Of a stretch of DNA of 64,000 bases, positions 2,845 to 9,942 are shown in pieces. A model generated the notes under the pieces. The model saw only the letters and a program-made list of their open reading frames with translations, was not told the origin of the DNA and did not search any database. The position numbers and the translations under genes are program-made. This DNA is from an uncultured Alphaproteobacteria bacterium. GTDB taxonomy: Bacteria > Pseudomonadota > Alphaproteobacteria > CAAGCB01 > CAG-977. The stretch spans positions 12,173 through 76,172 of the forward strand of contig CAKQWA010000006.1 in NCBI GenBank assembly GCA_934277945.1, read 5' to 3'. The first letter of the stretch is position 1. Each line of letters begins with the position of its first letter.

Positions 2845-3744
2845 TTATTTTTTCTTATCCTGTTTGCGCAGGGCTTCCGCGCCCGACACGACGTCCAGCA
2901 ATTCGGTCGTGATGTTTTCCTGACGGATTTGCTGATACTGCAAATTCATCTTTTCAAGGTTTTCGTCAATGTTCTTTTCCGCCGCCTGCATCGTCGTCAA
3001 ACGCATATGATGCTCGGCGGACAGCGCTTCGGTAATCGACTGGCACAAATCGATCATGACGCGCTCGCGCACCAGAGCCGAATTGATTTCGGAAGCCGGC
3101 AGCGAAAACGTCGGGAAATTGTGTCCGGGCCAGTTAATTTTCTTCAAACGCTCCACCCATTCGTAACTGAACGGCATCAGTTGCAGGGAAACGGGATGGA
3201 CGGTTGTGCCTTCCTTGCGGCTGTAAAACACGAAAACGTGCGTGTAGCCTTCCTCGTCGATCAGTTCGTTGATGCGCACCAGCACGGAAGCCGCCGTGTT
3301 GCCGACGGCTTTCACGGTGTTGGAAACGGGATACGCTTCGCACATATTGTAGTCTTTGCCGTGCATCTGTCCGATGATTTGGCGTCCGACGGCGATGTAG
3401 CCGACCTTGCGCATATCAAAGCCGTCTTTTTCCAGTTTTTCTTGGGCAAAACGGAAAACTTCGCGGTTCAATTTGCCGACAAGCCCCGTGTCCGACCCGA
3501 CGACGACCGCCAAAGCGCGTCTGTGTTCGGCTTTCACGACGACGGGATCGGCAATTTGAAGCGCGTCGTTTTTAAACAGCGCAATCACGCCCAGATTGAC
3601 CGTGCGGCTGTATTCGCGCAACGACTTCAAAGCCGTGTCGTATTGCAAAATACTGACCGCCGACAGCGATTTCATCGTCGTGACGATGGAACGCAAATCC
3701 TGCGTCGTTTTAATGCGTTTTTGCAATCCTTCCAAACTGTCCAT
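2845..3744 (-). CDS. atpG: ATP synthase F1 gamma subunit (N-ATPase operon).
   Basis: Full-length gamma-chain similarity, including the C-terminal helix TTELLDVVSGAEAL. Last gene of the operon. Confidence 0.85.
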   Translation of the reverse strand: MDSLEGLQKRIKTTQDLRSIVTTMKSLSAVSILQYDTALKSLREYSRTVNLGVIALFKNDALQIADPVVVKAEHRRALAVVVGSDTGLVGKLNREVFRFAQEKLEKDGFDMRKVGYIAVGRQIIGQMHGKDYNMCEAYPVSNTVKAVGNTAASVLVRINELIDEEGYTHVFVFYSRKEGTTVHPVSLQLMPFSYEWVERLKKINWPGHNFPTFSLPASEINSALVRERVMIDLCQSITEALSAEHHMRLTTMQAAEKNIDENLEKMNLQYQQIRQENITTELLDVVSGAEALRKQDKKK

Positions 3745-3765
3745 GATGCCCGTCCGTTAGAAAAG

Positions 3766-5286
3766 TTAAGCCTTGACCAGCCCCGCCTGCACAAGCGCGT
3801 CCTTAATTGTCGCGTTAATCTGCGCTTTGACTTCCGCAGACAGTTTTTCGCGCTTCAAAATGTCCTCGATCACGTCCTTGTGATGCGCTTTGAACGCTTG
3901 CACGGCGACGTCCGCCGCCTTTTCCCTGTCGGCGTCCGCCACTTTGTCGAACAGCCCCTCGGTCGTCGCGAACAAAACGGCGAACTGATCCGCCACGGGA
4001 ACGGGACGGAACTGCTTTTGCTGCAACACGGAGCGGATTGTGCGTCCGCGCCGCAACTGGCGTTCCGTTTCGGCGTCCAGATGCGAACGGAATTTCGCGA
4101 AACTTTCCAATTCCTCGAATTGCGAATAAGACAGTTTCAAAGGACCGACCAGCGCGCTGTACGCGGGCAGTTGCGCATCGCCGCCGACGCGGGAAACCGA
4201 ACGCCCCGTGTCGATTGCGGGCAGGATGCCTTTTTGGAACATCGGCGAAGACAGGTAAATCTGTCCGTCCGTAATGGAAATGATGTTCGTCGGAATGTAC
4301 GCCGACATATTCTGCGCTTCGGTTTCGACAATCGGAAACGCGGTCAGCGAGCCGCCGCCGAATTCGGGGCGCAGATGCGTCGAACGTTCCAGCAGGCGCG
4401 AATGAATGTAGAAAATGTCGCCGGGGAACGCTTCGCGTCCGGGGGAGCGGCGCAACAACAGCGACAATTCGCGGTAGGCGCGCGCGTGGCTTGTCAAATC
4501 GTCGTAAATGACCAGCACGTCGCGTCCCTTTTCCATGAAGTATTCGCCGATCGCCGTCGCGGAATACGGGGCGATGTACTGCATCCCCGCCGTTTCGTCA
4601 CCCGACGCGGCGACGATGATGCAGTTTTGAAGCACCCTGTATTTGCGCAGATTGTCGACCACGCGGGCGATTGCCGTGCCGCGCTGGGCAATGGCGCAAT
4701 AAATGCAGATGACGCCCGTGTCTTTCTGGTTGATGATCGTGTCGATCGCCAAAGCGGTCTTGCCGGTCTGACGGTCGCCCAAAATCAATTCGCGCTGACC
4801 TCTGCCGACGGGTGTGAACGCGTCGATCGCTTTCACGCCGGTCATCAGCGGTTCGGTCACGGGCGCGCGCGACATGATCGGATGCGCCTCGCGTTCGATT
4901 TTGCGTCTTTCGACGGTGACGATGGGACCCTTGTTGTCCAGCGGATTGCCCAGCGGGTCGATGACGCGCCCGAGCAGACGCTCGCCGACGGGAACGTCGA
5001 CAACGCGCCCCGTTCTTTCCACGCGGTCGCCGGATTTAATGCCGTCGGGATGATCCAAAAACACGACGCCGACGGAATCTTTCGCCAAAGAAAACGCCAT
5101 GCCCGTCACGCCGTTCGGGAAAGACAGAAGTTCCTCCATTTGAACTTTATCCAAACGGGACACTTCCGCCGTCGTTCCCGTCACGGAAGACACGGTGCTG
5201 ATTTCCCGAATGTCGATTTCGGGCGACATCGTCTGTATTGTTTTATCCAGAGCCTTAAAGGCTTCTTGTGCCGCTTCTGTAAACAT
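3766..5286 (-). CDS. atpA: ATP synthase F1 alpha subunit.
   Basis: Walker [19 protein letters not shown]. Typical alpha-subunit sequence throughout. Confidence 0.95.
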
Positions 5287-5298
5287 GACGGTTTCCTA

Positions 5299-7915: not shown

Positions 7916-7921
7916 CCCTTT

Positions 7922-8332
7922 TCACCTTACCGCCATTACGTCCGCTTGACGCTTGACCGTCATCACGCCGCGCGTCAAGCCCGCTTCCAAACGCGCCATC
8001 GCCGCGTTGACGGATTTGCGGTTTTCTTCAACCTTTTTAAATTCAACTTCAATCGTTTTCGCCAGTTCCGCCAGATTCTCGCCCTTGACCGCGCGGCGCA
8101 CGGACAGCAGAACCTTTTGGTTCGCCTTGACCAGAATACCGCCGTCGCACGCCATGAAAATCTCGCGATCCTCGTCTTCGGGCGTGTAAGACACAATCCC
8201 AGGCACCACGACGCTGACAAAATCGGCGTGATGCGGCAGGAACGAAAACGACCCGTCCGCCGCTTCAAAGCGCAGATGCAGGACGTTTTCATCGGCAACG
8301 ACGCCGAACGGGGTCAAAACTTGCAATCTCAT
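7922..8332 (-). CDS. atpC: ATP synthase F1 epsilon subunit.
   Basis: Start ATG at 8332 overlaps the atpD stop (ATGA). The beta-sandwich N-terminus [12 protein letters not shown] is typical of epsilon. The track ORF extends further upstream and that extension is spurious. Confidence 0.75.
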
Positions 8333-9744
8333 GCGGCGGACTGCTCCTTCATTTTTTCGACTTTTTCGTACACGTCGTCCAACGACCCGACCATGTAGAA
8401 CGCGTTTTCGGGCAGGGAATCCAATTCGCCGGACAGAATCTTTTCGCATCCCGTCAGCGTTTCCTCCAAACTGACCGAGCGTCCCTCCATGCCGGTGAAG
8501 TGGAACGTCGTAAAGAACGGCTGAGTCAGGAAGCGTTCCAACTTTCTGGCTTTCAGCACGATCTTCTGGTCGTGTTCGGGCAGTTCGTCAAAGCCCAGCA
8601 TCGCGATGATGTCTTTCAATTCCTCGTATTCGGCAAGCGTGCGGCGCACCGCCGTCGCCACCCTGTAATGACGTTCACCGACCGTCACGGGCGTCAGCAT
8701 GTTCGAGCCGGAAGCCAGCGGATCGACCGCCGGATACAGCCCCTGCGACACGCGCGTGCGAGACAGAACGATATTCGAGGACAAGTGCGCGAACGTGTGG
8801 CTTGCCGACGGGTCGGTCAAATCGTCCGCGGGGACGTAGACCGCCTGAATGGACGTAATGGCGCCGTCCGGCGTCGACGTGATGCGTTCCTGCAACGACG
8901 CGATTTCGGTCGCCAAAGACGGCTGATAGCCCACGCGGGAGGGCATCTGCCCCATCAACGTCGAAATTTCGGACCCCGCCTGCACGAAACGGAAGATGTT
9001 GTCAATCAGCAACAGCACGTCCTGCTTTTTCTCGTCGCGGAAATACTCCGCCATGGTCAAAGCGGCGTGAGCGACGCGCGCGCGAATCCCCGGCGCTTCG
9101 TTCATCTGTCCGAACATCATGACGGTCTTGTCCAAAACGCCCGCGTCGCGCATTTCGCGATAGAGTTGCTCGCCCTCGCGGCAACGTTCGCCGACGCCGC
9201 AGAACAGGGAAACGCCCTCGTAGCGTCCGACCATGTTGTTGATCATTTCGGTAATCAGAACGGTTTTGCCGACACCCGCGCCGCCGAACAGCCCCGCCTT
9301 GCCGCCGCGTTCCATCGGCGCGAGCAAGTCGATCGCCTTAATGCCGGACACGAAAACTTTTGAATCGACACTGCGCTCTTTCAAAGGAACGGAGGGAACG
9401 TGAATCGGACGGCGTTCCGTCTCGCCCAAAGGCAGACCGTTGTCGATCGGATCGCCGAACACGTTGAACATACGCCCCAGAATCTTGCTGCCGACGGGAA
9501 CGGAAAGCATACGGTTCATATCGACGACCGCCATGCCGCGAGCCAAGCCCCTTGTGGGACCCATCGCCAGACCGCGAACGGTTTTGCCGTCCAAATGTTC
9601 TTGAACCTCAATCACCAGCGAGTTGTTTTCGCCCGTATGCAGTTCGTTGTATACGGCGGGCAGTTCGTCTTCAAAGGTGATGTCGACGACACTCCCCTGA
9701 ATTGCGGTGATATAACCGATATTTTCTTTTTCATTCTCTGACAT
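8329..9744 (-). CDS. atpD: ATP synthase F1 beta subunit.
   Basis: Walker [11 protein letters not shown]. The DELSEED-region equivalent is present. ATG at 9744 (MSENEKEN) has AGGAA upstream. The track start at 9753 is a GTG codon. Confidence 0.95.
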
Positions 9745-9942
9745 CGCGCACACTCATTCCTTGACCGGAGTCGATTGATTGCAAACATAGTTTTCCGAAT
9801 TTAGAAAGTAACCAATAAATTCAGAAAAATCAAACACTTTTATCCTTTCGGCGAATTTTTTTCCGAACAATGAAAAAAGCATCATTTCTTAATCATTTTT
9901 TGCAATAATGTTGACAATTCGGCTTTTTTAACGAGGCATCCG

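What the first reader, a model, noticed from the sequence alone, without database searches (positions are those of the whole stretch)
2845..9753. N-ATPase-type ATP synthase operon (beta-epsilon-Q-R-a-c-b-alpha-gamma, no delta)
The gene order atpD-atpC-atpQ-atpR-atpB-atpE-atpF-atpA-atpG matches the N-ATPase operons described by Dibrova et al., not canonical F-ATPase operons (a-c-b-delta-alpha-gamma-beta-epsilon). A delta gene is absent, and there are two small membrane proteins between epsilon and a. Several gene pairs are coupled by overlapping stop and start codons (ATGA). N-ATPases are laterally transferred, coexist with a canonical F-ATPase, and are proposed to be Na+ exporters.
Basis: partly seen in the sequence, partly recalled or inferred. 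Interest (0 to 1): 0.6.

Follow-up and report, generated by a model that had tools for sequence, protein, structure and literature searches.

The report
N-type rotary ATPase operon
This is a complete, intact operon for the already-described "N-type" variant of the bacterial rotary ATPase, found in an uncultured human-gut alphaproteobacterium. It is an ordinary new member of a known family, with one twist: its ion-binding subunit has lost one of the residues needed to bind sodium.

Summary
Window 2845-9753 (minus strand) holds nine tightly packed genes in the order beta-epsilon-AtpQ-AtpR-a-c-b-alpha-gamma. AtpR and AtpQ hit their own Pfam families. Every subunit scores best against NCBI's "alternate F1F0 ATPase" models and resembles N-ATPases of other phyla more than any solved F-ATPase, including an alphaproteobacterial one.

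Two details need correcting:
- Only two gene pairs overlap by ATGA.
- Delta is not wholly absent. The C-terminal domain of delta is fused to the long b subunit, as is known for N-ATPases.

The host is an uncultured gut alphaproteobacterium. Three relatives carry the same operon, and in one it sits next to the same neighbouring gene. Codon composition matches the rest of the window, so there is no sign of recent transfer.

The "Na+ exporter" reading is not secured here. Relatives have the full Na+ motif (E...E-T/S-S/T-x-x-Y). This species has E...E-T-G-S-I-Y, which published rules score as H+. A Na+-pumping decarboxylase operon and the rest of an NhaA gene lie just past the window's end.

I could not test whether a second, canonical ATP synthase exists. 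Verdict: a new member of a known kind, of low to moderate interest.

The parts
8329..9744 (-). atpD, N-type beta subunit (471 aa from the ATG; an alternative GTG start at 9753 gives 474 aa)
   Evidence: TIGR03305 alt_F1F0 beta scores 736 bits against 647 for canonical atpD. phmmer gives 674, 660 and 643 bits to N-type betas of Trichloromonas, Thiothrix and PCC 7002, against at most 549 for a natural solved F-type beta and 513 for Paracoccus. Walker A GGAGVGKT is present.
7922..8332 (-). atpC, epsilon subunit (136 aa); its start overlaps the beta stop codon (ATGA)
   Evidence: PF02823. TIGR03166 alt_F1F0 epsilon scores 125 bits, above its cutoff of 100. The overlap was read directly.
7508..7915 (-). 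atpQ, small membrane protein (135 aa; some gene callers start 69 nt later, giving 112 aa)
   Evidence: PF09527 at E=6.7e-11 and TIGR02230 at 64.6 bits, above its cutoff of 46.7.
7137..7511 (-). atpR, the N-ATPase hallmark membrane protein (124 aa); its start overlaps the atpQ stop codon (ATGA)
   Evidence: PF12966 AtpR at E=6.3e-20 and TIGR03165 at 65.6 bits, above its cutoff of 55.5. Two arginines in hydrophobic segments (FARLAF and LSRVCV) are invariant in an alignment of 7 sequences that includes the PCC 7002 reference.
6412..7134 (-). atpB, a subunit (240 aa)
   Evidence: PF00119. TIGR03306 altF1_A scores 241.7 bits, and NF004481 scores 236, above its cutoff of 227. The RLFGN motif with the essential Arg is visible in the translation.
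6129..6407 (-). atpE, c subunit (92 aa), two-carboxylate type: E30 in helix 1 and E63-T-G-S-I-Y68 in helix 2
   Evidence: PF00137; TIGR03322 at 101 bits and NF009998 at 105 bits. Aligned to the Na+ c-rings 3zk1, 1yce and 4bem. Motif survey.
5299..6078 (-). atpF, long b subunit fused to the C-terminal domain of delta (259 aa)
   Evidence: PF00430 covers residues 7-137, with a weak OSCP hit at 165-236. TIGR03321 and NF011044 match full length. The profile hits b chains over positions 1-160 and delta/OSCP chains over positions 163-245.
3766..5286 (-). atpA, N-type alpha subunit (506 aa)
   Evidence: TIGR03324 alt_F1F0 alpha scores 721.5 bits against 615 for canonical atpA. The best plasmid hits are all annotated 'alternate F1F0 ATPase alpha' (Acaryochloris, Picosynechococcus pAQ7). 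N-type alphas score 558-586 bits, against at most 522 for a natural solved F-type and 482 for Paracoccus.
2845..3744 (-). atpG, gamma subunit (299 aa), the last gene of the operon
   Evidence: TIGR03323 alt_F1F0 gamma scores 236 bits against 119 for canonical gamma. N-type gammas score 127-158 bits, against at most 67 for any solved F-type gamma.

Best explanation
This is an intact N-type (alternate F1Fo) rotary ATPase of an uncultured human-gut alphaproteobacterium. It has been kept by vertical descent within that clade.

Shown:
- All nine genes are present and full length.
- The catalytic motifs are present: the Walker A motifs of alpha and beta, the essential Arg of subunit a, and the helix-2 Glu of subunit c.

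Inferred from the family:
- An alpha3-beta3 head turns a gamma-epsilon shaft and a c-ring against subunit a.
- The stator is the b subunit, whose fused delta C-terminal domain replaces a free delta.
- AtpQ and AtpR, with two buried arginines facing the two-glutamate c subunits, help assemble or gate the ring.

Coupling ion: the clade's enzyme carries the complete Na+ site. In this species the hydroxyl residue that holds the Na+-coordinating water (Thr67 in the Ilyobacter/Fusobacterium numbering) is Gly. I therefore read this copy as proton-preferring, or at least much weakened for Na+: about 55% H+ and 45% Na+.

Direction and role: most likely an ATP-driven cation pump for ion homeostasis and membrane energisation, working beside another rotary ATPase (about 60%). 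The helix-1 packing motif AxSxCxGxG, which is bulkier than GxGxGxGxG, suggests a large c-ring and a high ion/ATP ratio. That last point is inference only.

Identity as an N-ATPase: about 0.95. The confidence of 0.5 given for this explanation is for the whole functional reading.
For: Identity:
- Gene order and ORFs.
- AtpR PF12966 and AtpQ PF09527.
- All subunits score best against the alt_F1F0 TIGR033xx models or their N-type NF equivalents.
- They are closer to N-type subunits from Desulfuromonadales, Gammaproteobacteria and Cyanobacteria than to any natural solved F-type, including alphaproteobacterial Paracoccus.
- The top plasmid hits are the reference N-ATPases.
- The b-delta fusion and the two invariant AtpR arginines.

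Vertical maintenance:
- Three relatives at 72-86% beta identity carry the same nine-gene operon.
- The adjacent ClpB-like gene is orthologous in the sister species: 83% identity, against 86% for beta.
- GC3 is 0.704 for the operon and 0.708 +/- 0.031 for other window genes.

Ion:
- ETGSIY is fixed in six assemblies and in all eight members of the 90% cluster. The exact c sequence occurs on 136 contigs.
- 96 of the 120 closest c homologues carry a full Na+ motif.
- The ProAD rule requires [S/T/Q] at this position for Na+.
- In the two-carboxylate Fusobacterium ring the Na+-bound water is held by Thr67 O-gamma.
- The B. pseudomallei N-type c subunit (E...E-T-M-x-x-Y) is experimentally H+ specific, with a c17 ring and an AxGxAxAxG motif.
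Against: - No experiment exists on this enzyme.
- Six subunits fall just under NCBI's strict 'exception' cutoffs for the alt_F1F0 models (for example beta 736 against 752 and alpha 721 against 750). This is therefore a somewhat divergent N-type branch.
- The genome encodes a Na+-translocating decarboxylase and NhaA close by, and sister species keep a full Na+ site. Na+ coupling, or even sodium-driven ATP synthesis, is therefore a live alternative.
- Dibrova et al. argued that the helix-1 Glu could supply an extra ligand and rescue Na+ binding when the Thr is missing.
- A Ser sits one position later (ETG-S), with unknown effect.
- The existence of a second rotary ATPase in this genome was not verified.
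Confidence: 0.5

Rival explanations
1. The enzyme is still Na+-coupled and belongs to a sodium cycle. The oxaloacetate-decarboxylase-type pump exports Na+, NhaA interconverts Na+ and H+ gradients, and the N-ATPase either exports Na+ at the cost of ATP or uses the sodium gradient to make ATP. The parallel is the Fusobacterium and Propionigenium F-ATPases, which work with decarboxylase Na+ pumps.
For: - The oadG-oadA-oadB-like operon has its beta subunit at 546 bits on TIGR01109, against a cutoff of 191. NhaA scores 431 bits on NF007111, above its cutoff of 423. Both lie on the same contig, immediately past the window end.
- Relatives carry a full Na+ motif.
- The best solved matches of the c subunit are Na+ rings.
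- The helix-1 Glu might compensate for the missing ligand.
- A two-carboxylate ring driven by a decarboxylase-made Na+ gradient is a known arrangement.
Against: - Gly replaces the water-holding Thr/Ser, so the ProAD rule scores the site as H+.
- The one N-type ring tested that lacks this residue is H+ specific.
- N-ATPases have not been shown to synthesise ATP. In M. acetivorans, deleting the operon had no effect on growth or ATP synthesis.
Confidence: 0.3
2. In this clade the N-ATPase is not a 'second' enzyme. It is the main, or the only, rotary ATPase and acts as the cell's ATP synthase. This has been proposed on genomic grounds for the Chloroflexota genus T78.
For: - The operon is conserved across the clade at housekeeping-like identity and sits in a housekeeping neighbourhood.
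- Its composition matches the host.
- NCBI's pipeline names these proteins plain 'F0F1 ATP synthase'.
- A precedent exists: 18 of 20 T78 genomes have only an N-type enzyme.
Against: - The surveys by Dibrova, by Koumandou and by ProAD report N-ATPases next to an F- or A-type enzyme. ProAD, which covered GTDB r202, singled out only T78 as an exception.
- An intact ATP12 (F1-alpha assembly chaperone) gene about 7 kb beyond atpG hints at a conventional alphaproteobacterial F1. This is weak evidence.
- I could not scan the genome.
Confidence: 0.15
3. It is the organism's canonical F-ATPase whose genes merely happen to be in an unusual order.
For: All core F-type domains are present, and canonical atpA and atpD models also score above their cutoffs.
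Against: - AtpR and AtpQ are present, there is no free delta, and b is fused to delta.
- Beta, alpha and gamma score no better against Paracoccus (an alphaproteobacterium) than against Bacillus or chloroplast F-types. They score clearly lower than against N-type subunits from three other phyla.
Confidence: 0.02
4. It is a decaying, non-functional remnant of a transferred operon.
For: Partial or degenerate N-ATPase loci exist elsewhere, for example in Chlorobaculum tepidum and Nitrosococcus halophilus.
Against: - All nine ORFs are intact with their catalytic motifs.
- The proteins are identical or nearly so in many independent assemblies from different human cohorts.
- The operon is conserved in relatives.
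Confidence: 0.03

Closest known systems
Reference N-ATPase operons (Dibrova et al. 2010), e.g. Synechococcus/Picosynechococcus sp. PCC 7002 plasmid pAQ7, Acaryochloris marina pREB4, Methanosarcina
   Same: The atpDCQRBEFAG order is identical. Also shared are AtpR with two membrane arginines, AtpQ, no free delta, a long b-delta subunit, and a c subunit with a Glu in both helices. Alpha is 53-62% identical.
   Different: The host is a gut-associated anaerobe-type alphaproteobacterium rather than a marine or halotolerant organism. The operon is chromosomal and shows no sign of recent transfer. The c subunit reads E-T-G-S-I-Y instead of E-S-T-x-x-Y. AtpR has an extra hydrophobic N-terminal stretch of about 25 aa. 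Scores sit slightly under NCBI's strict cutoffs.
Burkholderia pseudomallei N-type ATPase (c17 ring, H+ specific; Schulz et al. 2017, PMC5376962)
   Same: The operon type is the same. The c subunit has two glutamates, E-T at the first two motif positions, and a non-hydroxyl residue where the Na+ rings have Thr67. The helix-1 packing motif is non-glycine rich.
   Different: The third motif residue is Met in Burkholderia and Gly here, followed by Ser. Burkholderia is an aerobe with a documented F-ATPase on another chromosome. Here the second enzyme is unverified and close relatives still have a Na+ site.
Fusobacterium nucleatum Na+ F-ATP synthase with a two-carboxylate c11 ring (PDB 3ZK1; PMC3692424)
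   Same: It is among the closest solved c subunits (E=1e-14). It has the same Glu32/Glu65 pair, Tyr70 and RQP-type loop. Its organism also uses a biotin-decarboxylase Na+ pump.
   Different: It is a canonical F-type operon with a free delta and no AtpR. It has Ser66-Thr67 where this c subunit has Thr-Gly. Its function as a synthase is demonstrated.
Genus T78 (Chloroflexota), with an H+-type N-ATPase as the only rotary ATPase (ProAD, PMC11738941)
   Same: An N-type operon predicted to be H+ by the same motif rule, in an anaerobic, uncultured lineage.
   Different: The phylum is different. Whether this N-ATPase is the sole enzyme in its genome is unknown.

Membership tests
N-ATPase (alternate F1Fo ATPase; Dibrova et al. 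2010) | Operon order atpD-atpC-atpQ-atpR-atpB-atpE-atpF-atpA-atpG | tested here: met
   ORFs and family assignments. Gene calls on six other assemblies give the same order.
N-ATPase (alternate F1Fo ATPase; Dibrova et al. 2010) | AtpR present: a small hydrophobic protein with conserved Arg residues in two transmembrane segments | tested here: met
   PF12966 at E=6.3e-20; TIGR03165 at 65.6 bits, above its cutoff of 55.5. Two Arg are invariant across 7 AtpR sequences, including PCC 7002. Transmembrane topology was judged by eye from hydrophobicity and was not predicted with a tool.
N-ATPase (alternate F1Fo ATPase; Dibrova et al. 2010) | AtpQ (PF09527 'gene 1') between epsilon and AtpR | tested here: met
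   PF09527 at E=6.7e-11; TIGR02230 at 64.6 bits, above its cutoff of 46.7.
N-ATPase (alternate F1Fo ATPase; Dibrova et al. 2010) | No separate delta gene; an unusually long b whose C-terminus aligns with delta | tested here: met
   No OSCP-only ORF lies in the operon. The b subunit is 259 aa. The OSCP hit is at 165-236. The profile matches solved delta/OSCP C-terminal domains down to E=1.1e-5.
N-ATPase (alternate F1Fo ATPase; Dibrova et al. 2010) | Subunits cluster with N-type subunits, apart from F-type subunits of the host clade | tested here: met
   Tested by score comparison, not by a tree. alt_F1F0 HMMs outscore the canonical ones for beta, alpha and gamma. In phmmer bits against N-type subunits of three other phyla versus the best natural solved F-type: beta 643-674 against 549, alpha 558-586 against 522, gamma 127-158 against 67. 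Paracoccus scores 513, 482 and 63. The top annotated plasmid hits are 'alternate F1F0 ATPase'. Most alt_F1F0 'exception' cutoffs are narrowly missed.
N-ATPase (alternate F1Fo ATPase; Dibrova et al. 2010) | c subunit with a Glu in the middle of both helices | tested here: met
   E30 (GEGY) and E63 (VETGSIY), aligned to E32 and E65 of F. nucleatum.
N-ATPase (alternate F1Fo ATPase; Dibrova et al. 2010) | Present as a second rotary ATPase beside a canonical F- or A-type enzyme | not testable with these tools
   Only about 90 kb of this genome was visible (window plus flanks), and it holds no second atp locus. The single genome-contig scan did not recover the species. Indirect hints point to a second enzyme: an ATP12 chaperone gene nearby, and ProAD names only T78 as a lineage with a sole N-type enzyme.
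Na+-translocating subclass of N-ATPases (ProAD / Mulkidjanian motif) | Complete motif [Q/E]-Xn-E-[S/T]-[S/T/Q]-X-X-Y in the c subunit | tested here: not met
   This c subunit reads E...E-T-G-S-I-Y, with Gly at the [S/T/Q] position. Gly is fixed in this species. Sister lineages meet the motif with ETSGIY, ETSAIY or ESTAIY.
Canonical bacterial F1Fo ATP synthase | A free delta (OSCP) gene, a-c-b-delta-alpha-gamma-beta-epsilon order (or the split alphaproteobacterial operons), and subunits grouping with the host's taxonomic class | tested here: not met
   There is no free delta and the order differs. There is no special similarity to the alphaproteobacterial Paracoccus enzyme.

The most novel reading that the evidence does not exclude
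In this uncultured gut alphaproteobacterial clade the N-ATPase is the principal, possibly the only, rotary ATPase. It would work with the neighbouring oxaloacetate-decarboxylase Na+ pump and NhaA in a Na+/H+ cycle, so an N-ATPase would be acting as an ATP synthase. The Ser-to-Gly change in this species would mark a recent, natural switch of coupling ion between sister species.
Probability: 0.15. Interest if true: 0.6.

Novelty: new member of a known kind. Interest (0 to 1): 0.25.

Why it matters
N-ATPases have been catalogued in about 1,800 genomes, but only two have any biochemistry: Aphanothece halophytica (Na+) and Burkholderia pseudomallei (H+). Their cellular role is still debated.

This operon adds a host-associated, anaerobe-type alphaproteobacterial clade in which the enzyme appears to be stably inherited. 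It also offers a natural pair of sister species whose c subunits differ at one Na+-site position (ETSGIY against ETGSIY). That pair would be a convenient system for testing how ion specificity is set.

If the genome turns out to lack a canonical ATP synthase, it would be a second exception to the "always the second enzyme" rule. As it stands, this is a correct annotation of a known system.

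Tried and rejected
tblastn showed that L007 holds only a 34-aa AtpR-like stretch and no other atp gene, so I discarded it as a false lead. The source species was not recovered.
- I looked for a way to find a second F- or A/V-type ATPase in the same genome and found none. Protein searches list only the 120 best hits, all of them N-type. Contig look-ups show only +/-10 kb around a gene, and no second atp locus appeared in them.
- The look-up of the 420-aa protein at 23406-24668 found nothing.
- The held ProAD supplement has no RF32 or CAG-239 entries. 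Literature searches for the ATPase content of gut Alphaproteobacteria found nothing useful.
- The promoter and terminator scan gave counts at the shuffled expectation, so it says nothing about operon boundaries.
- Rfam and tRNA scans found no RNA element near the operon.
- The 423-aa membrane protein 20 bp downstream of atpG was considered as a tenth operon member. I rejected it because relatives have unrelated genes at that position.
- A cyanobacterial 'sodium energetics' preprint contained nothing about N-ATPases.

Full report
**Observation**

The minus strand of window 2845-9753 carries nine consecutive ORFs. Pfam and NCBIfam identify them as beta, epsilon, AtpQ, AtpR, a, c, b, alpha and gamma. 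Gene calls on six independent assemblies that encode the identical alpha subunit give the same nine genes.

9753 is a GTG that opens the longest beta ORF, while gene callers use the ATG at 9744.

Reading the junctions directly shows ATGA stop/start overlaps at only two places: beta/epsilon at 8329-8332 and AtpQ/AtpR at 7508-7511. The remaining junctions are short gaps of 2 to 50 nt. The packing is tight, but "several" overstates the number of overlaps.

**What it is**

Each feature that defines an N-ATPase in Dibrova et al. 2010 was tested.

- **AtpR.** It hits PF12966 (E=6e-20) and TIGR03165 above its cutoff.
- **AtpQ.** It hits PF09527 and TIGR02230 above its cutoff.
- **AtpR arginines.** I aligned AtpR with three clade relatives, two N-ATPases from Trichloromonas and Thiothrix, and the reference operon on Picosynechococcus PCC 7002 plasmid pAQ7. 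Two arginines inside hydrophobic segments are invariant, matching the published hallmark.
- **Delta.** There is no free delta gene, but the b subunit is 259 aa long. Pfam gives a weak OSCP hit at residues 165-236. A profile of six N-type b subunits matches solved b chains over positions 1-160, and the C-terminal halves of solved delta/OSCP chains over positions 163-245, down to E=1.1e-5. Delta is therefore not absent. Its C-terminal domain is fused to b, and only its N-terminal helical domain is missing. This is the known N-ATPase arrangement.
- **c subunit.** It has a Glu in both helices.

**Placement among rotary ATPases**

I did not build a tree. Three independent score comparisons agree.

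- NCBI's alt_F1F0 models outscore the canonical ones: beta 736 against 647 bits, alpha 721 against 615, gamma 236 against 119.
- phmmer scores to N-type subunits from Desulfuromonadales, Gammaproteobacteria and Cyanobacteria are higher than to any natural solved F-type. Beta scores 643-674 against at most 549, alpha 558-586 against at most 522, and gamma 127-158 against at most 67. The alphaproteobacterial Paracoccus enzyme scores no better than Bacillus or chloroplast enzymes, at 513, 482 and 63.
- The best plasmid matches to alpha are nearly all annotated "alternate F1F0 ATPase". They include the pREB4 and pAQ7 operons used to define the family.

The nearest named c-subunit homologues outside the clade, from Trichloromonas and Thiothrix unzii, sit in AtpR-containing operons of the same order.

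One caveat applies. Six subunits fall slightly below NCBI's strict "exception" cutoffs. This explains why NCBI names the relatives' proteins plain "F0F1 ATP synthase", and it marks this as a moderately divergent N-type branch.

**Host and history**

The exact alpha protein occurs on contigs from human-gut metagenomes (Hadza and Nepal cohorts and others) and in MAG GCA_964322865.1. MAGs of relatives are named "Acetobacter sp." or "Alphaproteobacteria bacterium". ATP12, GapR and TrcR genes in the flanks fit an alphaproteobacterium. My guess that this is the RF32-type gut group was not tested.

Three relatives at 86%, 75% and 72% beta identity all carry the complete nine-gene operon. In the 86% species the operon sits next to the same ClpB-like gene, which is itself 83% identical. 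The operon's GC3 is 0.704, against 0.708 +/- 0.031 for 29 other window genes, and its codon usage is not deviant. No integrase, transposase or tRNA flanks it.

The family as a whole is patchily distributed, but this copy shows no trace of recent transfer and behaves like a stably inherited gene set.

**Coupling ion**

The c subunit aligns without gaps around the site to the Na+ rings of F. nucleatum, I. tartaricus and A. woodii. In Ilyobacter/Fusobacterium numbering the correspondences are:

| Reference position | Residue here |
|---|---|
| E32 | E30 |
| E65 | E63 |
| S66 | T64 |
| T67 | G65 |
| G68 | S66 |
| Y70 | Y68 |

In the F. nucleatum structure, Na+ is bound by E32, the V63 carbonyl, E65, S66 and a water molecule that is held by Thr67 O-gamma. 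Here that residue is Gly.

The ProAD rule requires [S/T/Q] at this position and otherwise calls the enzyme H+. The only N-type ring tested that lacks the hydroxyl, B. pseudomallei with E-T-M, is H+ specific and forms a c17 ring.

The variant is real. ETGSIY is found in six assemblies and in all eight members of the 90% cluster, and the exact sequence occurs on 136 contigs. The sister species reads ETSGIY through several nucleotide differences.

Among the 120 closest c homologues, 96 have a full Na+ motif. The others have a hydrophobic residue, Cys or Gly at this position, lack the helix-1 Glu/Gln, or are truncated. Only this species (ETGS) and two nearby lineages (ETGA) have Gly.

The clade's enzyme therefore looks ancestrally Na+-type, and this species has lost one ligand. 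I put H+ coupling at about 55% and residual Na+ coupling at about 45%. Dibrova et al. argued that the helix-1 Glu might compensate, and a Ser follows the Gly.

The helix-1 packing motif reads AxSxCxGxG, compared with AxGxAxAxG in the c17 ring. This hints at a large ring, but that is inference only.

**Physiological context**

A contig with identical sequence at the window's right end extends it.

- The last 190 nt of the window encode the C-terminus of an NhaA Na+/H+ antiporter. It scores 431 bits on NF007111, above the cutoff of 423.
- An oadG-oadA-oadB-like operon lies 4-8 kb further on. Its beta subunit scores 546 bits on the Na+-translocating decarboxylase model, against a cutoff of 191.

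The organism therefore has a primary Na+ pump and an antiporter. This keeps open a role for the N-ATPase in a Na+/H+ cycle, in either direction.

**The open question**

About 90 kb of this genome was visible and holds no other atp locus. No tool can scan the rest.

Published surveys say N-ATPases accompany an F- or A-type enzyme. ProAD, which covered GTDB r202, notes only the genus T78 as an exception. An intact ATP12 chaperone gene lies about 7 kb beyond atpG. I therefore estimate about a 75% chance that a second enzyme exists.

**Verdict**

This is a correct identification of a known system in a new host lineage. The mildly interesting points are a species-level loss of one Na+-site residue and a neighbouring Na+ pump. 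It is a new member of a known kind, with interest of about 0.25.

Noticed in passing
window 63811-64000 (- strand), continuing beyond the window; L016 1883-5229 and 8505-9848: The window ends inside an NhaA Na+/H+ antiporter gene. An oadG/oadA/oadB-like operon for a Na+-translocating decarboxylase lies 4-8 kb past the end, on the same contig. The genome therefore has a primary Na+ pump about 55-60 kb from the N-ATPase operon.
   Followed up: partly
window 1553-2824 (- strand): A 423-aa protein starts 20 bp downstream of atpG. It has a glutaredoxin/thioredoxin-like CPHC domain (a weak Pfam Glutaredoxin hit) followed by a multi-pass membrane domain with an 'NPC' motif. It matches no Pfam family above threshold. 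Relatives do not have it next to the operon, so it is probably not part of the ATPase.
   Followed up: partly
L001 19744-20451 (about 7 kb beyond the window's left end, downstream of atpG): An intact ATP12 (F1-alpha assembly chaperone, PF07542) gene overlaps an AsmA-family gene and an acylphosphatase gene. Cas2 and Cas1 genes follow about 0.5 kb further on.
   Followed up: no
window 7437-7511 (N-terminus of AtpR): AtpR of this species has an extra hydrophobic N-terminal stretch of about 25 residues. It is absent from six other AtpR sequences, which are 94-112 aa against 124 aa here.
   Followed up: no
window 19891-22638 (- strand): A 915-aa P-type cation ATPase of type II. Its best model is the PMR1-type Ca2+ ATPase, at 668 bits against a cutoff of 798, so it falls below cutoff. 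It is another ATP-driven cation pump in the same neighbourhood.
   Followed up: partly
window 12796-19371 (- strand): A Fic-MerR fusion protein (327 aa) is followed by citrate synthase, a monomeric-type isocitrate dehydrogenase and an 838-aa ORF. These TCA-branch genes lie just upstream of the ATPase region. The 838-aa ORF was not annotated, and I only guess that it is aconitase.
   Followed up: partly
window 27477-29900 (+ strand) and 25284-27380 (- strand): An 807-aa fusion of a circularly permuted ATP-grasp domain with an Alpha-E domain lies next to a 698-aa protein that has no Pfam match.
   Followed up: no
window 50042-50713 (- strand) and 58434-58508 (+ strand): A serine-recombinase (Resolvase) gene and the only tRNA in the window (tRNA-Gly, anticodon GCC). 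Both are far from the operon.
   Followed up: no
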